Assembly: GCA_951406725.2 (NCBI GenBank)
Contig: OX597829.1
Span: 3,348,001-3,412,000 of the forward strand
Origin: Octopus vulgaris
Lineage: Eukaryota
Length of the DNA stretch: 64,000 bases
Direction of reading: 5' to 3'
The position numbers and the translations under genes are program-made. Each line of letters opens with the position of its first letter. Position 1 is the stretch's first letter. Of this stretch, positions 533 through 59,284 are shown piece by piece. The notes below the pieces were generated by a model. The model searched no databases, was not told where the DNA came from, and was given only the letters and a program-made list of their open reading frames with translations.

Positions 533-1240
533 AGTGACTGCGGCAACCAAAAGTCCTTCAACCAGAAGTTCATGTTTAACCCTAACCACTCTTGCATGGC
601 CTTAGCCAAGTGGGCTGAGGCACTGTCCTGCTGAAAGACATAGTCCAACTTCTTTATGATCTTTCTCACCCAGGGTAGGACTTTCATGGCCAAGATATCC
701 CTGCAATTGGCTGCAGTGATCCTGTAACTGACCATGAACCACACCAGGGCATCTTGCCATTTGAAGCCAGGGTGCTTGATTGTGGACATGTAGTGGACCT
801 TGGAGATATTCTGGCTGAAATTGATCACACAGTTGTTCTGCTTGCTGATGACCAGATTGACCATGAACGATTTTTCATCAGAAAAAATGAGAATTTGATT
901 GCCATGACACTTCAAGTCATTGAGAAGGCAACTACAGTGTTCCCAACACTGTTTTAACGTATGGTCGGTGAGCAGAGGCCTTTCCACACACCTTAGGCAC
1001 TTGCTGCCCTCCTCCTTGACATGACAACCTTGGACATCATGGCCACTGAGATGTTGTTCTTCCCAAGAGCAGTTATTTTCAGCTTTGGATCATTTTGAAG
1101 GTCTTACTCATGGCCAAATGGTTGACAACTTGAGGTTTGCCTGATTGAGGTCGATCTTTGTGGTATTTTTCCATTCTTGAGCCGCTCTGCAATTTTTGGT
1201 GAAGTCAGACTTGTTGTGGCCCACATACAGGAGAGCAGAA
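533..1240 (-). mobile_element. Degenerate Tc1/mariner transposase, maT/DD37D-like
   Basis: ORF 400..987 contains IFSDEKSF and VFQQDSASAH...QEWL...FWLKDFWLPQS. It is interrupted before the third catalytic residue and resembles the DD37D element at 45185-46452. Confidence 0.8.
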
Positions 1241-1644
1241 GTCTTGATTCTTATTGCTTCCATCTCGATACACCTGTACACAATGTAAAAGACATTTTAA
1301 TTATATGTGCTGGAAAAGTAGAACTTTAAATATGCTTGACAGCACTTTTTCTATCACACACATTAACCTTTCGAAAGATCAAAACTGAGTATAACAGGAC
1401 TTTTGCAATGCCTAGTATGATAGCAAAAGGGATAAAGGGTTCAGTGGCAAAAAGGGGGAGCAGCCATGAAACATCACCTTAAAAAAGGTAATTTACTGAG
1501 TATGATTACAAGAATATCATGGGGCCCACATGGCTAAGACCTGCTTTTATTGGAAAAATCACTTTAAAACACATTCTGTTGTTATTGTTGTGTGTTGAAT
1601 TCTGTTTATAATCATCTAAGTACCAACAGTTGGTGTTAAACAGA

Positions 1645-1830
1645 GTTGAATAGTAGGCCAAAAAGTTTGCTTCAGAACCAGGTAGTTTTGGGTTCAGTCC
1701 CACAGCATAGCACCTTGGGCAAGTGTCTTCTTTTAAAGCTCCAGACAGACAAAAGCCTTGTGAGTGGATTTGGACAAAAACTGAAAAAGGCCGATTCTTA
1801 TATTTATATATACATGTGTGTGTGTGTATG
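1645..1830 (+). mobile_element. Nin/Deu-domain tRNA SINE, 5' half
   Basis: B-box-like GGTTCAGTCCC, CACCTTGGGCAAGTG and GCCTTGTGAGTGGATTTGG...AACTGAAA match the full copy at 49612-50020. Confidence 0.75.
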
Positions 1831-1838
1831 TACATGTA

Positions 1839-2730
1839 CAAGGGTTGGACAAAATAATGGAAACACCTTGAAATTTCAAACGAATTTATTTTAATATGAG
1901 GTAGGACTTACAAGGTATGGACTCGTACAAAGTTTGAATTGTTTTCAAAGGAACTTTTGTCCATTCTTCAGCTAAAACAGTCTCCAGTTCTTGTAGTGAT
2001 GATGGTGGAGGATATTGACTCCTAACTTGTTTTTCTAAAATGCACCATAAATGTTCAATAATATTGAAATCTGGGGACTGTGGTGACCAGATAAGATGTT
2101 CAACTTCACTAGAATGTTCCTTGTGCCATTCAGTAACAAATTTATCTGTGTGAATTGGTGCATTATCATCCTGAAAGATTGCGTTTCCCTCTGGAAACAG
2201 TTCCACAACCACAGGATAAATTTGATCAGATAAAATGCTTAAACAGTCTTGACTATTAATTCTGCCATGATGGGAAACCATTGGACCAGCAGATTTCCAA
2301 GATATAGTCACCCCCCAAAACCATCACAGATATTCCTCCATTTAGAAGAAGGCAGTCTGGATAAATGCTTCTTTTGGCTGTCTCCACATGTATACTTGGT
2401 TGGTGGTTGGAAATAAGGTAAAAGATGACTTGTCTAAGAAATTAACATTCTTCCACTTTTCTAGGGACCAATTCTGTTGGTTTTTCCCTCCATTCTAAAC
2501 GATTTGCAATGTTTGCTTTTGAAAGTAGTGGTTTTTTTCTTGCAGTGAAATCTGGCTTTGTGCAGCTCCTGGTGAACAGTTTTTGTGGAAACTGGGTTCT
2601 CGAGGTGGTCATTAAGCTCTACAGTAATTTTGGGAGCTGTACTTTTGTGATCCTTTCTAACAATTCATGTAAGAGTCCGATGGTCCCTATATGAAAGTTT
2701 TGGCTTTCTTCCAGAGTTTTGTTTCGACAA
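1839..2730 (-). mobile_element. Tc1-like DNA transposon, 5'-truncated, DD36E spacing
   Basis: ORF 1886..2311 has IFQDDNAPIH...WSPQSPDFNIIEHLW with 36 aa between D and E. A frameshifted WKNVNFLDKSSFTLFPT lies upstream. TIR-like end TA|CAAGGGTTGGACAAAATAATGGAAACACC at 1839. Confidence 0.85.
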
Positions 2731-3179
2731 GATATCATAAAGGAGTATATCTCCTAATATTGTCTGAATATCCAATACCAATTAAAACAAGCATATGAAA
2801 CATAATATATATACATCTGGGCTGGCCAGGGCTACCCAAGAACAATGAAAGATGAAAATTACTTAATTCTTCTGATAGCAATCCAACTGTGACAACCACA
2901 CCTTTTAAAAAGCTGTTTTAAACTGTCCCTATTTGAATCAAAACCTATTATAATTACATTTTGTGATATTCCAAAAGCCAACTTAATTAACCCTTTCAAT
3001 AACAGTCTACCAAAGACGACCACCTCCAGTTCCATTATGCAAAAGTAATATATTTTAAACTGTCAATAGTTAACCTTCTGTTATTATTATTATATGTCAA
3101 AACACTTTACTCATTCCAAACAGCAACTACCATTCCATCTGATTCTATCACAAACCTATATTAAATTTTGTGGTTGTGT

Positions 3180-3470
3180 TGAGCGTGATCGTTACCAACA
3201 TCGCCTAATTGGCACCTGTGCTGGTGGCATGTGTAAAAAGATTCGAGCGAGATCATTGCCAGTATCGCCTGACTGGCACATAAAAAGCACCCACTACACT
3301 CTCAGAGTGGTTGGTGCTAGGAAGGTCATCCAGCTGTAGAAACTCTGCCAGATCAAGATTGGAGCCTGGTGCAGCCATCTGGTTTGCCAGCCCTCAGTCA
3401 AAATCGTCCAACCCATGCTAGCATGGAAGGCGGATGTTAAACGATGATGATGATGAGGATGAGGAGGATG
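3180..3470 (+). mobile_element. Orphan 3' UTR/tail of RTE LINE family A
   Basis: Matches the UTR that follows the RT ORF at 8530-9050. Has the CCATGCTAGCATGG palindrome and a (GAT)n tail. Confidence 0.85.
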
Positions 3471-3809
3471 ATTTTGTCAGAAACTTGCTTCTCAACCACA
3501 TGGTTTCAGTTTCAGTCTCACTGCATGGAACCTTGGGTAAGTGTCTTCTATAGCCTCAAGCCAACCAATATAACTCTTTTGATAACAATCCATATAAGAC
3601 TGATGGTTGGTGGGTTAAAAAATGCCAAGAGATTAATGTGGAAGAATTGGATGGAAGAGGAAGACCAAAGATGACAAGGATAGAATTGATGAAGCTCAAA
3701 CTCTGGAAGACAAATCTCAGAAAAGTGATGACAAATGAACACAAGTCATGGGATTCTTAGTTGGAAAAGACTCGTCCAACCCCCATGCCCAGTAGGAAAA
3801 AGTGGACGT

Positions 3810-4035
3810 AAGAGGATGATGATGATGATGATGACGACGACGATGACGATAATGATGATGATGGCAACAATGATGAGGACAAGGGAGAGAAAAAAGAGGA
3901 AGAAGAAGAAAAAGAAGAAGAAGAAGAAGAAGGTGGTGGTGGTAAGGAGGAGGAGTAAGAGGAGGATGAGGAGGAAGAAGAAGAGGAGAGGAGGAGGGGG
4001 AGGAGAGAAGAGGGGGAGGATGATGATGAGGATTT
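3810..4035. repeat. Purine-rich trinucleotide low-complexity tract (GAT/GAA/GAG)
   Basis: Read directly from the sequence. Confidence 0.95.
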
Positions 4036-4637
4036 AAAACCTTCAATCATAATTTATGTAAGATCCTTTCATTAAGTCATATTCCAAACACCAATTTCAT
4101 ATACTAATGGAGTCAGGAATGAAATTCAAAAACGACCTATCAACTACAGCTTTGTTTATGAAAAGGGATCAAATCATTTCATTAGAATCAGTAAACTGAA
4201 TTCAATTGTTGTAAAAATCCTTGAGAAGAAGGAATGGAAATGTTTCATTATTAATTTATTTTTTAATTCGTCAGGGCAACTGGAGCAAGCATGGTTATAT
4301 TGGCTTCGTTTGAGACATAAAGCACCAGCAGTAGTCAGATTCTGAAGTCTTGATAATGTAATCAGTACCCCAAGACCTTATCTTCATTGCCAGATGAAGA
4401 CATCAAACTGCGAAAACAATTCCACTGACAAAAATAAAGTAAAATAAAATGAAATAAAATAAGAAATATTTGTACAAGCATAGAAAATAGAATAAAACAG
4501 TCAAAAAGAAAATTATAATTCAGAAAATCATTTTTCTATGAAAGGTAAAAAAAACAAACATTATCCATACTAGTAAATGAATAAATAAATAATCAAAACA
4601 ATAAATATGTATATACATACATATGTACATACATACA

Positions 4638-13731: not shown

Positions 13732-14214
13732 GGGTATGAAAGGTACTGGTGTCAGGAAGACCCAAAAGATATTGGGTAATGCTAAGTAAGTGCTATGGAT
13801 AGACTATGGTTAAAGCTCTAGGCTCGATAATGATATGAGTGAGGAGTCCAACGTGGGTCATGTAGTAGCATGCATATATATAAATTAACAGAATGAGATA
13901 AAAAAAAAATCCAAACAGTAAATAAATTTCATAACATTTATCAAGAAAAAGTCTTACACCAAAAAAAACTCCTCAATCAACCAACACTGTTTACAAGGCT
14001 CTATGCTTGGAATAACCAAATATAACTACTATTGGAACTTACACAACAGGTACAAGAAAATTTCTTCACCCACCAAAAATTTTTCATCACTTATATACAC
14101 CATTCTACTTGAATAATGGAACTGCAAATACAATATCCTTATGTATCTCACTTCTATATTAATTCTCTTACTTCCCTCTGTATTTCATATCTTCTCTACA
14201 GTAATCAATACTCA

Positions 14215-14262
14215 CCGTCTCTGATGGAATATATAAAATATCCTGGAAACAGCTGTAAGATC
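14215..14262 (+). ncRNA. Hammerhead-like motif
   Basis: gtct-CTGATGG-aatat-ataaa-atatcc-tg-GAAAC-AGCT-GTA-agat. Palindromic stem III loop; one core deviation. Confidence 0.6.
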
Positions 14263-14326
14263 TTTTCTTGATAAATGTTATGAAATCTATTTACTACCTT
14301 GGATTTTTTATCTCATTCTGTCAATT

Positions 14327-14386
<60 letters not shown>

Positions 14387-14546
14387 GTATAAAGGATCAT
14401 GAGCAAGGCCAGAACATTGCGAAGTAAATGCAAAGCAAATCCCAAGAAAACAAATATATGAATTAATGTAGACTTACCTTGCATTTAGTATTTTGGGGTT
14501 ATGACTCCATTTTCAAGAATGTTGCCAGTGTGCATGTGTGTGTGAG

Positions 14547-14600
<54 letters not shown>

Positions 14601-14751
14601 TCTGCAACATTCGTTATTTTCTTTAAAATGGGGTCAAAACCCCAAAATATTGAATGCAAGGTAAGTCTATATTAATTCATATATTTGTGTTTTGGGGATT
14701 TGCCTTGCATTTCCTTCACATTGTTCTGGCCTTACCCATGGTCCTTTATAC
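14387..14751. repeat. Fold-back element: ~140-bp imperfect inverted arms around a (CA)n spacer
   Basis: GTATAAAGGATCATGAGCAAGGCCAGAACA... versus ...TGTTCTGGCCTTACCCATGGTCCTTTATAC. Confidence 0.85.
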
Positions 14752-29656: not shown

Positions 29657-29929
29657 TGTGGAAAGAGTCACAACACCCCCTGTGAGAATAGACCTGACTG
29701 AATGACTATAAATAGTAGCAATTCTGAGTGAGAGACTGAACAGGTGTTAATCGCAGGAAGTCGTAAGGTGTCATTTTGGCAGTTTGCCAGAATATCATTT
29801 GTTGGTTCATGTATAGTTAGTGGAGAATTTGTTGGATTGTTACATTTTTGTTACCCTGCTTTGTTGTATGTTTTATTATTACTACATGGTTATAGAGTAA
29901 AAAGTATCATAACAATTGGCAATACAACA
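29657..29929 (+). repeat. 3' LTR (~270 bp)
   Basis: Follows the PPT, contains TATAAATA and ends CAACA before the TSD. Confidence 0.88.
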
Positions 29930-30545: not shown

Positions 30546-30782
30546 TACAAGGATTTTAGGAAAAATATTGTTTACTCTCAAGTTATAACTGAGTAAAATG
30601 TTCCATTTGGCAGTTTCAGTTATTTGTTAAATTTATTCCATTTTGTTGTGTTATAACTATATAATTAGATACTGTAAATACATACATACATACAAATATG
30701 TGTGTGTGTTTTAAATAAAATAAGATAAGATAACAAGGCCAAGGCAATGTGATATTTCTAGGACATTTATAAAGAGATAGGT

Positions 30783-30833
30783 GGTCTTAACAGCTGTTTC
30801 AGGGAAATAAATGATATCTCATCATCAGAGACG
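30783..30833 (-). ncRNA. Hammerhead-like motif
   Basis: Minus strand: GTCT-CTGATGA-tgagatat...tttccct-GAAAC-AGCT-GTTA-AGAC. Stem I is GTCT/AGAC; related to the 14215 motif. Confidence 0.65.
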
Positions 30834-30937
30834 AGTTAAGAGAGTTTCAATAGAAGGGATTAGAAGAGTTCGTTATATAAAAAGTTACTTTGGAAAGGGA
30901 GAGATAGAGAAAGTATAAAGGGAAATATGAAAATATA

Positions 30938-31156
30938 AAACAATAGCATACTAGCTGACCTCTGTGGATATTTCTTGGTTTAATGAGAAACAACCATTAA
31001 ATATTAAAAATCAATACGGCATTTTTTAGTGTTTTATATATATAAATATAGCTTATAAATAAAACAGTAAAAATGCTATATTGATTTTTAATATTTAATG
31101 ATTGTTTCTAATTAAACCAAGAAATATCTACAGGGTCAGCTAGTATGTTATTGTTT
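30938..31156. repeat. Near-perfect ~100-bp-arm palindrome (fold-back)
   Basis: AAACAATAGCATACTAGCTGACC... versus ...GGTCAGCTAGTATGTTATTGTTT with a short AT-rich loop. Confidence 0.9.
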
Positions 31157-36099: not shown

Positions 36100-38669
36100 T
36101 AGAAGCAAAGCTCAGGTTTGGTTTTATTCCTGGTAGGATTTTTGTGGGTAGTAGGTTACTACCTGTAATCTGTAATCTTAAACATCTACAGGTTTTCAAG
36201 TCTTTCAAGTGCTTAGAACCCTCATGATAATCCTTGCTGTCCCTAAGAGGCAAATTTTCTCTAGGAGCTCTGCTGGGCATTCCATTTCAATCTCTTTCAG
36301 CCATTTGTCTATATCTTGACTTACTGTTTCAAACACACCAATTTTATAGGCATGATCTTTACTGTTATTATTATTCCGTAGTCTTCTTTTTATTATGTGC
36401 TTTCACTGCACTACTGAGCACATCTCTGTGTGCCTTGGGTATGTGCTGTGGCTTGTTGTGATGCTGTCTTGAAAGTATTTTAAGTAGGATGTGTGCAGTG
36501 CCTAATAGTGCTTTTTACTATATGTTATATATACTTGTTAGTCCTGGTGATTTTGTAATGTAGTTGTCTGAATAGTTTTTGTCAAACCTAATGCAGCTAC
36601 TATGATAGGAATTGTTTCCGTTTTCAGACTCCACATTCGAGTTACTTCTGTTTCCAGATCTTTGTATTTTGAAAGTCTCTTTTAGAGAAATATTGTCATC
36701 TGTTGGTATTGATACGTCAATTAGAAAGCATTTTTTTTCTTCATGATCTCTGACAATTATATCTGGTCTGTTGGCCTTAATTTCTCTATCTGTGTGTATC
36801 GGCATATCCCAGAGTATGGTTGCTTTCTCATATTCTGTGACCTTTTCTGGTGTGTGCCTATACCATCTTTTTTCTGTTATTATTCCATAGTGTTGATATA
36901 GCTTCCAGTGTATGTAGGTCCCAACTCTGTTGTGTCTGTGAATATATTCCTTCTTACCCAGGACTGGGCAGCCAGAGACAATATAATTTATAGCTTCTTG
37001 TCCATCTCCACATATTCTGCAGTTACTTGTATTTCTTTTCGTTACATGTTTTTGGTAATTTCTGGTGGGAAGGTTTTGATCTTGTGCTGCAATTAAAAAT
37101 CCTTCAGTCTCTGCTTTGAGTCCTGAGCTTCTCAGCCATTGCTGGGATTTTGCTTTGTCTATTTCTTTTCTGTTTAGTTTAGGCCAGTATTTGCCTTGAA
37201 GGGGCTTTTCTTGCCATTGTTCCAGTTTTAGTTTGGATTTCAGTTGTTTTACAGCTTTCATTGTTTCTTCTTTTTCTTCGTAGTTGTTAGGTACTATGAC
37301 TTCTTTTTTGTATTTGTCAGCTTCCTTAAAGACAGAAAACGTTTTTTTTTTGTTTTGTTTGTATTTCATGGCTATTTGTATTAGTTTTTGTTGCTTCTGA
37401 AGCTGGTATTTCTGTAATCCTATGGTGGTTATTTTGTAATAGTTTTCTAACCGTGTAAGGCCTTTTGGATGGTGCGGTCTAAATCCTGTCATTATTTTTT
37501 TTTTGTTTCCCTTTCTATTTTGATTAGTTCATTTAGTGTCCAGTTAAGAATATTGTAGCTGTAACTTCTAAATGGGACAGCTAGAGTGTTGATACCTCTT
37601 ATCTTGTTTCTCGCATTAAGCTCTGTTTTCAGTATTAATCTAACTCGTCTATAGTATTCTTCTCTTTCATTTGTGTGTGTTGTATCATATCTAGTTCATT
37701 GATTCCTAAGTATTTGTATGTCTAGCTTTGGTCTAATTCTCTTATTTCATTTGCTTTATCTAGTATGATGTTGGTTCCTCTTAACCTAGTTTTCTTCTTT
37801 TCAAGGTTGCTTTGGAACATGTTTATTTCTTTGGTAAATCCATGTACTGTCTGTAGTAATGTTTCAGATGTTTATCATTTGTAACATACAGTTTTAGGTC
37901 ATCATATATAAGAGGTGGCTGATTGTTTTGCTGTAACAGTTGCATTCACATCCAGTTTTGTTTAGCATGTCAGATAAAGGTGTCAGTGACAAGCAGAAAA
38001 GGAGTGGAGAGTGAAGGTCTCCCCGGAATATTCCTCTTCTAATGGAGATGGCTTTGGTTTTTATGAGTCCATCTTTTGTCTGGAGCTGTAGCACTGTTTG
38101 CCATTTATTCATGGAATTTTTTATATATTTTATGATTATTGGTGCTACCTTGTTCATGGCTAGTGTTTCTAGGATACATGTGTGAGGAATATTGTCAAAA
38201 GCCTTTCGATAGTCGATCCAAGCCGAACTTAGATCCTTCTTCTTTCTGTGCTGTCTTCAGTTATAGGCTTTATTGATCAGTAGCTGATCTTTACTGCTGT
38301 ATGAGCCCTTGCAGCTTCCCTTCTGCTCTTCTGGAAACTGTTATCTTCCAGATGCTTGCTCAATCTCTGCGATATTATTGCAGTAAAGGCTTTGTAAATT
38401 GTAGGGAGACAGGTTATTGGTCTGTAATTTTGTGGGGTTGCCATTTCAGTAGATTTGGGAATTAGGTTAGTTTTCCTTTCTGTCAGCCATTCAGGCATTG
38501 TCTCTGGCTCTGCTACTATTTCATTAAATTTCTCAGTCAGCTTATTATGTGTTCCTGTAAGGTATTTTAACTAGAAGTTGGGGATCTTGTTGTGCCCAGT
38601 TGCCTATCAGTTGCTTAGTATTTGCAGTGCCTGGGTGATCTCTTCAGTTGTTATAGGGGCCCAGAGTTG
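36100..38669 (-). mobile_element. R4/Dong-like non-LTR retrotransposon, decayed, bounded by (TAA)n
   Basis: NYRPITCLPTIYK, WIDYRKAFD, RRGIFRGD..SPLLF, HLLYM, ETEGFLIAAQDQ, CRICG...YIVSGCP...RHN, NRPDIIV...LIDVSIP. (ATT)n lies at both ends. Confidence 0.9.
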
Positions 38670-56730: not shown

Positions 56731-56889
56731 TATATATATATATATATTTATATGCATCTACATATGGTTACATAGGGTTAAACTCAGCTCACCTTGATTT
56801 CAATTAGCATACACATATATATATATATATATATGTGTGCAATATATGTATAAATATGCTAATTGAAATCATACATTGAAATCAAGGTA

Positions 56890-58620
56890 CTTTTAGGACA
56901 TCAGTTCTCAAGTGCAACGACACACCAGTCACCTTGGTTCTTGGTTATCACCTCCATAAGGCTTCTCCATCTTGAGATTAGCTTTCATCTCATGTCTTCC
57001 TAAGTCTCCAGCTTTCACAAATTTCATCTGATGAGAGAGGTGGCTGTAACTGTCCATATCTTATGTACAGCCCAACTGATGTGAAACTTTGTAGAATATC
57101 AAGTTATCTATCATGGTATATGCTCACTCACCTCTTGACTTCTCCTACTGATGTCATAAGTATATCATATAGGATCAGCATTCACGTGTGTTTAGGTTGT
57201 AGTTCATGCTGGATGATAGAGCCCTTAAACTTATCTGGGATGCTTGATCCCCACCCCTTTGTCTTTTGCGGTCAAGCATTTGCTTATTTCTCAGTCGTAT
57301 ATGAAATGCTTCCAGCTTCTGTCAGTAAAGAAGGCATCATATCATTCCCCCAAGAATTTCATCGGGCTCTCCTCAATAGAAGATATAACCTCAATTTACC
57401 CTGAACTTGGAGCTAGTCACCTGTGCATTTGAAACACCCAAAGAAACCTGGGATGCTACCGTTCTGAATAGATGTATCAATCTGTTTATTACATTAATAT
57501 ATTTGTTTTGCAAGATTTTTGATGTGAAATTGTGTGTTGAAACAGATATTGTTGTATTTAGGAATGGTCATTTTGCCAGTTTAGCCAGAAAGAAGAAAGC
57601 AAAGGACCACTGATGCGGTCACAGGAGTGTGACGAAAGAACTCTGGCCGAAATAAGATTAAGATTAATGTAAAAAATAAATAACGCTGAAGCAAAGTAAC
57701 ACCAAATATATAGTGCGTGTGTTTTTATTGGCTAAACTGGCAAAATGACCATTCCTAAATACAACAAAATCTGTTTATTCTTCACATCATCCTTTTAGAT
57801 AGGACTAAGATCTTGACTTCAACACAGAAATGGTTTGGAACTGACTAATCTCTGGAGAATTTGCTTCCTTCAATATGAAGAAGCCTTCAGTTCTTTTTCG
57901 GGATGATGATATGGTGCCTTTTACCCATACTCTCAATAAGAATTACCACAGCCTGTAGAGTAGTATTAGGAATGTCAGTTATACAACTTGGTCTTGGTGC
58001 AAATGCAGATCAAACTTTCCATACAACCTCTTGGACTTATTTCTATGTTGGTTCTTTTGAAATAAGCTCTTCTTTGGGAGTTCTTGTTTTGTTAATCATT
58101 AGGTCTGCAGTTAATATATGTCTACAAAAAATCTTAGCTTGACTCTCTGTATGGAATTCTTCCACAATTCCTTTAACGCTGACTAGTCTTTCAGACCTTG
58201 CTTTTACTAACAGTATTTTAGTAAATTGGTATGGGATCTTAGTAAAGTGAGCTTCCTTTGCTCGCTCCTTCTTCCTCACTGTGTGAGACCTTTCTGCCCT
58301 TCTTAGCTTGCACATTTTATTCCAAAGACTTCTAGGCTTTCCTCAACACTTGTTCATTTGACTTGCTTATTGAATCTTAATTTCTCTACTCAGATACAAA
58401 ATCTTTCTCTCCCTTCTTTTGAGCTTTGTGGGTACATCTATAGTGGCTCTCCTTTCTTTGGTGTCAAAATATTCATTGGACATGTTGGAGACAATCACCT
58501 TTTGATTGGTCCTGTTTGTGTGGCCTTCAGAACCTTGTCAAGATCCTGGTCTAGTTTGTCCCATGCTGTACAGTTATTAGCTGGAAGTTATTTTACTCTC
58601 CACATTTAACCATTCCATCT
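56890..58620 (-). mobile_element. Decayed R2-superfamily (Hero/NeSL-like) non-LTR retrotransposon fragments
   Basis: RAERSHTVRKKERAKEAHFTKIPYQFTKILL; KGTISSS..RTEGFFILKE.NSPEISQFQTISVL; SIEESPMKFLG...YDAFFTD. These resemble Hero-type pre-RT and RT segments. Confidence 0.6.
57541..57775. mobile_element. Fold-back insertion with 47-bp inverted arms and an internal hammerhead motif
   Basis: Arms at 57541-57587 and 57729-57775. Spacer 57605-57648 reads CCA-CTGATGC-g-GTCACA-ggag-TGTGAC-GAAA-G-aa-C-TC-TGG. Confidence 0.8.
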
Positions 58621-59284
58621 TTGAACTTCTCTGCATTAGCATCTGAAATGTAAGATTTTCTCTACCCTGATGATGGACGCTCAACTTATCCAATGTTGAT
58701 TGCTCCCATTACAGCATATTGTAATGAACTACACCTACCAACATTATGATGGATCTCTGAGCCCCCAATAACAGCAGTTGGACTCATAACACCTTTCTTT
58801 CTTCTCTTTAATTTTCTGTCGCTTGTACTCTAAGTTGGATCCATTAATATCAATATCTATATATTTATACTTAAATATTCATTGTCTAAAAGTCTCCATC
58901 TTTTGGTTTCACTTGTTTTTCCCATGTACATATTTTGTTTTTCATATCCAAACTATTATATTTAATATATCTAAATTGTTTATCTGCATAATTGCCTCCA
59001 TATCTGCTCAACTTAATCCATCTTACAGCCATTCTTTACCCCATGGAATTAATCCCGAGCACTACTGTCTTCTATACTGAGAATCTCTGGATCTTACCAG
59101 TGGACTATAGGTTTCTTTTTATTTCTTGGTTCCATCTATCAAACCCACTCACAAGGCTTTGGTCGACCCAGGGCTATAGTAGAAGACTGTTGCCCAAGGT
59201 GCCATGCTGTGAGACTGAACCCAGAACAATGAGGGCTGGGAAGTAAACTTACCACAGCCACACCAATATATATATGTATATGAA

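What the first reader, a model, noticed from the sequence alone, without database searches (positions are those of the whole stretch)
57470..57775. Hammerhead enclosed by 47-bp inverted repeats, inserted in a Hero-like LINE
It looks like a MITE, but the spacer holds CCA-CUGAUGC-(GUCACA/UGUGAC)-GAAA-G-aa-C-UC-UGG, with stems I, II and III. It interrupts another element, so it is an independent mobile unit of about 300 bp. It is a candidate minimal ribozyme-carrying non-autonomous element and the clearest example of the hammerhead plus fold-back architecture.
Basis: partly seen in the sequence, partly recalled or inferred. Interest (0 to 1): 0.7.

Follow-up and report, generated by a model that had tools for sequence, protein, structure and literature searches.

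The report
Truncated fold-back Penelope-like retroelement insertion
This 277-base hairpin-shaped insertion with a damaged hammerhead-ribozyme motif is real, but it is most likely an ordinary dead, shortened end-piece of a Penelope-like jumping gene in an octopus-type genome, not a new minimal mobile element.

Summary
A 277-bp insert (57491-57767) lies between two identical 12-bp target-site copies inside a decayed LINE-like sequence. It holds inverted arms and a type I hammerhead-like motif, the only descriptor hit in the window (0 of 5000 spacer shuffles).

The arms are not terminal: 58 bp lie outside the left arm. Only 39 bp of the repeat belong to the element, and the rest is target DNA. 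In public contigs the family continues upstream of 57587 with other sequence (17 and 6 contigs), folds back at other points, and has two right-hand ends about 49 nt apart.

This is the published Penelope-like pattern: a 5'-truncated copy, an inverted 5'-truncated copy, a tail at one end, a TSD, and an ATG-led reading frame in the repeated end. The canonical core CUGAUGA exists in other copies, but the window's CUGAUGC is the larger share in both contig sets. The motif likely does not cleave. No RT or GIY-YIG ORF could be linked, so membership is inferred.

One detail is unusual: 8 nt of target match the template just past the element's end, hinting at homology-assisted priming.

The parts
57479..57490 (.). 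Left copy of the 12-bp target-site duplication
   Evidence: Exact direct repeat with 57768-57779; chance estimate about 1e-4
57491..57499 (-). Junction filler between TSD and tail; 57489-57498 is the exact reverse complement of 57663-57672, so possibly copied from the element's own RNA
   Evidence: shuffled 10-mers occur in the element 109 of 20000 times; noticed after the fact, so weak
57500..57548 (-). Tail: about 49-nt extension present only on the inverted copy; continues the reading frame begun in the arm
   Evidence: Family boundary with dissimilar, often (TA)n-rich flanks before 57500/57501 (X9 13+20 contigs, X17 7); homology of P0003 ends here
57549..57587 (-). Inverted, 5'-truncated second copy of the element's 3' end (39 bp, identical to 57729-57767)
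   Evidence: other copies have different sequence before 57587
57588..57767 (+). Direct, 5'-truncated copy of the family's 3' end (inferred pseudo-LTR): hammerhead, AT-rich spacer, start of a reading frame
   Evidence: Continuous family coverage in X9 and X17; boundary behind 57767 with TA-rich flanks in 7 X9 contigs
57604..57648 (+). Type I minimal-hammerhead-like motif with C at core position 9 (57616); predicted cleavage site after 57643
   Evidence: A at 57616 in 44 X9 contigs, 7 X17 contigs and 4 of 6 X23 reads
57745..57767 (+). ATG and first 7 codons of a putative ORF start; with the tail (57571 to 57497, minus strand) it reads 25 codons
   Evidence: 88% identical over 25 aa to the N-terminus of an uncharacterized Octopus bimaculoides UniRef protein, P0003; identity as a PLE ORF start is inferred
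57768..57779 (.). Right copy of the TSD; 57769-57776 equal the 8 template bases that follow the element's end
   Evidence: 13 of 127970 window positions, both strands and including this locus, match as well; 0 of 3372 in the LINE flanks
57780..58900 (-). Host: decayed LINE-like sequence, upstream part with many stops and frameshifts; outer limit approximate
   Evidence: 57823-57966 aligns at 58% over 48 aa to unnamed protein P0007; no Pfam RT hit in 3 of 3 frames of 57780-58349; Hero label recalled
56900..57478 (-). Host: decayed LINE-like sequence, downstream part; outer limit approximate
   Evidence: Translation begins with a motif I recall as following the P0007-like segment in Hero-clade RTs; no Pfam RT hit in 3 of 3 frames

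Best explanation
The 277-bp insert between two 12-bp target-site copies is most likely a dead-on-arrival insertion of a Penelope-like retroelement (PLE), made of two 5'-truncated copies of the family's 3' end joined head to head. Shown: TSD, a 180-bp direct copy with the hammerhead motif, an 88-bp inverted copy whose outer 49 bp are a tail absent from the direct copy, and a family in other copies that runs on upstream of 57587 and has two right-hand ends. Inferred: an autonomous PLE protein (RT plus GIY-YIG nuclease) nicked both target strands 12 bp apart; reverse transcription began at two internal sites of the RNA, about 23 and about 75 nt into the ORF start; both cDNAs stopped early and were joined at 57587/57588. 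The hammerhead is a passenger from the pseudo-LTR. As a single copy with C at position 9 and no stable helix III it is predicted not to cleave, and the copy lacks coding capacity.
For: Asymmetric arms, one-sided tail and TSD; different upstream sequence before 57587 in 17 X9 and 6 X17 contigs; boundaries before 57500/57501 (33 X9, 7 X17 contigs) and behind 57767 (7 X9 contigs) with dissimilar AT-rich flanks; other fold-back joints 57565 to 57728 (X17, 1 contig) and 57586 to 57705 (X9, 1 contig); an opposite-strand joint 57535/57738 (X17, 1 contig) that fits the tail continuing the sense strand; lowest depth inside the element at the junction bin 57574-57600 in X17 (611 against 1166-4043). PMC3846280 passages: Pen2a_Av has an inverted pLTR, 9-bp TSD and 31-bp tail on one side, and its pLTR holds the first 12 aa of the ORF, 22 with the tail; here 7 and 25 codons. 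PMC8557442 passages: inverted 5'-truncated copy plus a 30-40-bp tail at one end. PMC4209133 parts 1-2 of 4: PLE hammerheads have an unpaired base between 9 and 10.1, G10.1-C11.1, long helix II and short helix I, all seen here. P0003 from O. bimaculoides matches the 25-aa frame and then diverges at the tail end. PLEs cover 6.83% of the O. vulgaris genome in 190 families (PMC13282606 supplement row). A second, unrelated hammerhead-plus-fold-back piece lies at 13870-14339 of the same window.
Against: No RT or GIY-YIG ORF was linked to the family: only 30 nt of upstream sequence are known, no genome is held, and four collection scans found 0 loci. The 28-aa peptide has no Pfam hit and only sub-threshold Atlas hits (0.84); P0003 continues into an unrelated-looking protein. 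The tail (about 49 nt) is longer than the 30-40 bp in print. Helix III is not palindromic. Other fold-back joints rest on single contigs, and 1508 contig pieces and 150 loose-end rows were not shown. The raw-read runs did not behave as a same-species control: X22 gave 0 reads and X23 only 2-9 reads deep outside a satellite.
Confidence: 0.8

Rival explanations
1. The family is a non-autonomous PLE derivative (pseudo-LTR-only or retrozyme-like, longer than 180 bp), moved in trans by a PLE protein. This copy would still be a truncated fold-back insertion of it.
For: No ORF linked. The non-canonical C9 allele is the larger share of depth in X9 (87%) and X17 (67%). bioRxiv 10.64898/2026.07.22.740005 (parts 1-2 of 5) argues that animal retrozymes derive from PLE pseudo-LTRs and that monomers are dispersed.
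Against: No go-back joint from the 3' end to the hammerhead in X9 or X17. The motif is of the minimal PLE type, not the canonical type of tandem retrozymes (PMC7229834 passages). An ATG-led frame is retained in the repeated end.
Confidence: 0.13
2. The whole hairpin (arm, hammerhead spacer, arm) is a fixed minimal ribozyme-carrying element that moves as a unit.
For: Clean TSD, identical arms, strong fold. Logan contigs break at repeats, so spanning pieces can be missed (warns that a hole proves nothing).
Against: Copies with other upstream sequence and other fold-back points; no listed piece spans the unit; ends asymmetric. One copy only in 64 kb.
Confidence: 0.04
3. A DNA MITE whose spacer resembles a hammerhead by chance.
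For: Short size, inverted repeats and a TSD; no Rfam hammerhead hit.
Against: The left repeat is 58 bp inside the TSD, so the repeats are not terminal. The motif is not a chance match. The family extends beyond the left arm.
Confidence: 0.02

Closest known systems
Endonuclease-positive Penelope-like element insertions with inverted pLTR, tail and TSD (Pen2a_Av, PMC3846280; scheme in PMC8557442)
   Same: Head-to-head 5'-truncated copies, one-sided tail, 9-12-bp TSD, ORF start inside the repeated end, AT-rich or (TA)n flanks in other copies.
   Different: Both copies are cut very short (180 and 88 bp), no ORF body; tail about 49 nt rather than 30-40; clade not determined.
Minimal type I hammerheads of metazoan PLE pseudo-LTRs (PMC4209133)
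   Same: Unpaired base between 9 and 10.1, G10.1-C11.1, 6-bp helix II, short helix I, rudimentary helix III, dispersed single motifs.
   Different: C at position 9 in this copy and in many others; loop 3 (AA) not palindromic.
Poseidon PAc of Anolis, in vitro (PMC11167929)
   Same: Two internal RT start sites define the tail; both target strands are cut and extended; hammerhead mutants did not affect insertion.
   Different: There initiation was at RNA not homologous to the cut DNA and 111-118 nt into the ORF; here the target shares 8 nt with the template and the ends fall about 23 and 75 nt after the ATG.
Non-LTR retrozymes (PMC7229834; bioRxiv 10.64898/2026.07.22.740005)
   Same: Short, non-coding, type I hammerhead, 150-450-bp scale, PLE-related.
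   Different: Not tandem; inverted arrangement; minimal rather than canonical hammerhead; circular RNA untested.
MITEs (definition in PMC8969392 passages)
   Same: Short, inverted repeats, TSD.
   Different: Repeats are not terminal; family extends beyond the left arm.

Membership tests
Penelope-like element, EN+ | Telomerase-like RT plus GIY-YIG ORF in the autonomous family member | not testable with these tools
   No genome; 0 loci in 4 scans; only 30 nt of upstream sequence seen
Penelope-like element, EN+ | 5' truncation: family continues upstream of the copy's left end | tested here: met
   17 X9 and 6 X17 contigs with other sequence before 57587
Penelope-like element, EN+ | Adjacent inverted 5'-truncated copy at variable junctions | tested here: met
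   This copy; two other junctions, 1 contig each
Penelope-like element, EN+ | One-sided tail of 30-40 bp from two 3' ends | tested here: met
   Two ends at 57767 and 57500-equivalent; length about 49 nt, somewhat longer than in print
Penelope-like element, EN+ | pLTR includes the start of the ORF | tested here: inconclusive
   ATG-led 25-codon frame conserved in P0003, but not tied to a PLE protein
Penelope-like element, EN+ | Target-site duplication | tested here: met
   12 of 12 bp; empty allele not seen
PLE minimal hammerhead | Core C3 U4 G5 A6 N7 G8 A9 / G12 A13 A14 A15.1 / U16.1 H17 | tested here: not met
   This copy has C9; met in other copies: A in 44 X9 contigs, 7 X17 contigs, 4 of 6 X23 reads. 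Core as listed in PMC3088659 passages
PLE minimal hammerhead | Extra base between 9 and 10.1; G10.1-C11.1; long helix II; short helix I | tested here: met
   against PMC4209133
PLE minimal hammerhead | Palindromic helix III allowing a dimer | tested here: not met
   15.2/16.2 are complementary but the loop AA is not; predicted duplex +0.7 kcal/mol
PLE minimal hammerhead | Self-cleavage as a dimer | not testable with these tools
   Needs an assay
Non-LTR retrozyme | Head-to-tail tandem units each with a hammerhead | tested here: not met
   Single motif in the window; no go-back joint in X9 or X17, though contigs can miss joints
Non-LTR retrozyme | Circular RNA | not testable with these tools
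   No listed holder is on record as RNA and none of the guessed RNA runs has raw reads
MITE | Inverted repeats at both termini, next to the TSD | tested here: not met
   Left arm starts 58 bp inside the left TSD
Hero clade LINE (host) | RT similarity placing it in the Hero clade | tested here: inconclusive
   58% over 48 aa to unnamed P0007; no Pfam RT hit in 6 of 6 frames; clade name recalled

The most novel reading that the evidence does not exclude
The junctions record twin target priming by a Penelope-like RT: both nicked target strands paired by microhomology with the two internal start sites of one RNA (8 nt at the right end; 6 nt, with a short self-templated filler, at the left), and the two cDNAs met head to head. 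This would explain inverted pLTRs with a one-sided tail without the antisense self-priming proposed earlier, and would qualify the homology-free initiation seen in vitro. The family also appears to have spread with a non-canonical C9 core, suggesting cleavage is dispensable in vivo.
Probability: 0.3. Interest if true: 0.45.

Novelty: new member of a known kind. Interest (0 to 1): 0.18.

Why it matters
As read here it is ordinary: one of very many truncated Penelope-like ends in an octopus-type genome, and a warning that such ends mimic MITEs or minimal ribozyme elements. Two details could be useful to specialists if they hold across many copies. Target-template microhomology at both ends would bear on how PLE inverted repeats and tails form, which is unsettled (antisense self-priming in PMC3846280; homology-free internal initiation in PMC11167929). 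A family amplifying with a damaged core would be in vivo evidence that the hammerhead is not needed for insertion.

Tried and rejected
Rfam: no hammerhead family hit. No genome held. Pattern scans gave 0 loci: metagenome contigs twice, viral contigs, genome contigs. Weak self-BLAST hits at 29770, 24855, 40091 and other places were not copies of the family. Run search: no RNA holder listed; this is no evidence on expression. X22 gave 0 reads, so it is no test. Protein searches with LINE-flank pieces found nothing in the word-indexed database; the exhaustive search gave 3 hits, of which P0005 and P0006 are bacterial-type repeat proteins taken as chance and dropped, and P0007 was kept. Atlas searches on P0003 and its residues 1-27 named no PLE family. 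The family's arm motif was not found in the supplements held for PMC13282606 (1 file) or PMC8557442 (1 file); the octopus repeat library itself was not among them and may contain the family. A search for 'hammerhead ribozyme' + 'A9C' + 'cleavage' found 0 papers, so the effect of C9 rests on recalled knowledge that A9 pairs with G12. A search for Penelope + twin priming + inverted + microhomology found 1 unrelated paper (listing only). Earlier findings: nothing by sequence or in this genome.

Full report
1. Observation. The window is AT-rich animal DNA full of microsatellites and LINE remnants. It resembles octopus DNA by repeats I recall, and the only named homolog of the element's reading frame is from Octopus bimaculoides. 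No whole genome is held. At the stated place there is an inverted repeat, 57540-57587 / 57729-57776, 47 of 48 identical. An exact 12-bp direct repeat at 57479-57490 and 57768-57779 brackets it, with a rough chance of 1e-4. The insert is therefore 57491-57767, 277 bp. The last 9 positions of the right arm lie in the right direct repeat, and the one mismatch is its first base. The element's own inverted repeat is thus 39 bp (57549-57587 / 57729-57767, identical), and the left arm begins 58 bp inside the left TSD.

2. The hammerhead motif. It reads as described: CCA, CUGAUGC, an extra G, a 6-bp stem II, GAAA, GAAC, UC, UGG. A descriptor allowing one core mismatch finds only this site in the window; 2 of 40 window shuffles score with stem II of 5 bp or more, 0 of 40 with 6 or more, and 0 of 5000 spacer shuffles. 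Rfam has no hammerhead match (150 of 184 rows shown). The extra base between 9 and 10.1, the G10.1-C11.1 pair, the long helix II and short helix I are the traits given for PLE minimal hammerheads in PMC4209133 (parts 1-2 of 4 read), which also reports that a single such motif did not cleave and dimers cleaved weakly. Against function here: position 9 is C; helix III costs 5.7 kcal/mol; the predicted intermolecular helix III is unfavourable (+0.7); stems I and II form with probability 0.29-0.40 in the spacer alone; the MFE of the whole element does not contain the hammerhead. That A9 matters is recalled knowledge, plus its place in the consensus core in PMC3088659 (passages); a search for A9C data found 0 papers.

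3. Other copies. Twenty of 24 listed runs hold half or more of the sampled words, in 10 studies; none is on record as RNA. I laid 4 of the 24 on 57250-58050 at 80% likeness: X22 0 reads, X23 572 reads, X9 1179 contigs, X17 333 contigs. Depth lies only in the bins from 57466 to 57789, none on the LINE flanks, so what was laid comes from other copies. (a) Before 57587, 17 X9 and 6 X17 contigs carry a shared sequence that is not the left arm: the family runs on upstream and this copy is 5'-truncated. (b) Before 57500/57501, 33 X9 and 7 X17 contigs run into dissimilar flanks (agreement 0.52-0.59, often (TA)n), and behind 57767 seven X9 contigs do so: two 3' ends about 49 nt apart. (c) Other fold-back joints occur at 57565 to 57728 and 57586 to 57705, one contig each. 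(d) No listed piece spans the unit, but 1508 pieces and 150 loose-end rows were not shown, and the tool warns that holes prove nothing. (e) At 57616, A occurs in 44 X9 contigs (12766 of 96272 depth), 7 X17 contigs (360 of 1093) and 4 of 6 X23 reads. The canonical core exists, yet C is the larger share in both contig sets. Laying favours sequences like the window and summed depth is no copy number, so the shares are rough. The core is not invariant: 57636 is T in 4 of 9 X23 reads. No variant at 3% or more was listed in 57638-57646. (f) No go-back joint of the hammerhead-bearing unit was listed in X9 or X17. X23 is dominated by a roughly 83-bp tandem repeat from the spacer without the hammerhead.

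4. Comparison with print. PMC3846280 (passages and Discussion) describes Pen2a_Av with an adjacent inverted pLTR, a 9-bp TSD, a 31-bp tail on one side, and the first 12 residues of the ORF in the pLTR, 22 with the tail. Here an ATG at 57745 gives 7 codons before the first end, and the inverted copy with its tail reads 25 codons. That frame is 88% identical to the first 25 residues of P0003, which then continues with unrelated sequence, an independent hint of the same outer end. PMC8557442 (passages) gives the same general scheme. PMC11167929 (parts 1-2 of 4) shows that two internal RT start sites define the tail, that both target strands are cut and extended, and that hammerhead mutants do not change insertion in vitro. 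PLEs cover 6.83% of the O. vulgaris genome in 190 families (PMC13282606, passages and one supplement row). The defining RT plus GIY-YIG ORF could not be reached, so the filing under PLE is by structure and motif only. Two earlier AI reports on other genomes reached the same kind of reading; I did not check them and had stated my reading before.

5. The host. The right flank 57823-57966 aligns at 58% over 48 residues to an unnamed protein, P0007. None of 6 flank frames hit Pfam's RT model. I recognise RT motifs of Hero-clade LINEs on both sides in the expected order, from memory; Hero elements are listed for O. vulgaris. The host is badly decayed while the arms (39 of 39) and TSD (12 of 12) are intact, so the insertion is inferred to be much younger. 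The empty allele was not seen.

6. Mechanism. Shown: TSD, two head-to-head copies, one-sided tail, family boundaries. Inferred: a PLE protein nicked both strands 12 bp apart, each 3' end primed cDNA at one of two internal sites, both stopped early, and the products were joined at 57587/57588. Both arms carry the same allele at 57554/57762 where 76% (X9) and 50% (X17) of depth shows the other base, weakly favouring one template. At the right end, target bases 57769-57776 equal the 8 template bases after the element's end; 13 of 127970 window positions (this locus included) and 0 of 3372 LINE-flank positions match as well. At the left end the family's last 6 bases, read from low-agreement loose ends, match the TSD on the other strand, but 9 extra bases intervene; a 10-mer across them is the reverse complement of 57663-57672 (109 of 20000 shuffles). 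These were noticed after the fact in one copy. They suggest homology-assisted priming on both strands, which differs from the homology-free initiation in PMC11167929 and from the antisense self-priming proposed in PMC3846280. One literature search for twin priming in Penelope found no relevant paper; that is not an exhaustive claim.

7. Verdict. A real feature, explained by a known class: a truncated fold-back PLE end with a probably dead hammerhead (confidence 0.8). A non-autonomous PLE derivative remains possible (0.13); a fixed mobile hairpin (0.04) or a MITE (0.02) is unlikely. Novelty: new member of a known kind. Interest 0.18. Other papers consulted: PMC7229834 and PMC8969392 (passages) and bioRxiv 10.64898/2026.07.22.740005 (parts 1-2 of 5; its supplements were not seen). 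The octopus repeat library was not among the supplements held and may already contain this family.

Noticed in passing
window 13870-14339: A second hammerhead-plus-fold-back piece of an unrelated family: 90-bp inverted arms (84%), a degenerate minimal hammerhead at +14221 with palindromic helix III (CAGCTG), TA-rich ends. Likely another truncated PLE end.
   Followed up: partly
window 30780-30840 (minus) and 30938-31156: A related hammerhead-like motif with the same palindromic helix III, next to 89-bp inverted arms at 92%.
   Followed up: partly
window 14387-14751: 133-bp inverted arms (88%) around a (CA)n tract; no hammerhead seen; shares only a 17-nt AT-rich stretch with the tail studied here.
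   Followed up: no
run X23 laid on window 57652-57730: Most of the 572 reads fit a tandem repeat of about 83 bp made of 57652-57713 plus the reverse complement of 57710-57730, with two fixed differences and no hammerhead: a satellite-like derivative of this family's spacer. X22, with the same species label, gave 0 reads.
   Followed up: no
window 56791-56888: Small fold-back with 30-bp and 14-bp arms around a (TA)n tract at the end of the LINE remnant.
   Followed up: no
window 36518-38256 (minus): Another LINE remnant: RVT_1 at E 1.7e-7 and weak zf-RVT; resembles R4/Dong by recalled motifs.
   Followed up: no
protein P0003 (UniRef A0A0L8I3J7): An O. bimaculoides gene model that starts in this family's arm and tail and runs into a different sequence whose nearest named Atlas cluster is SWIM on 12% of members at score 0.84, a lead only: probably a chimeric annotation across an insertion.
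   Followed up: partly
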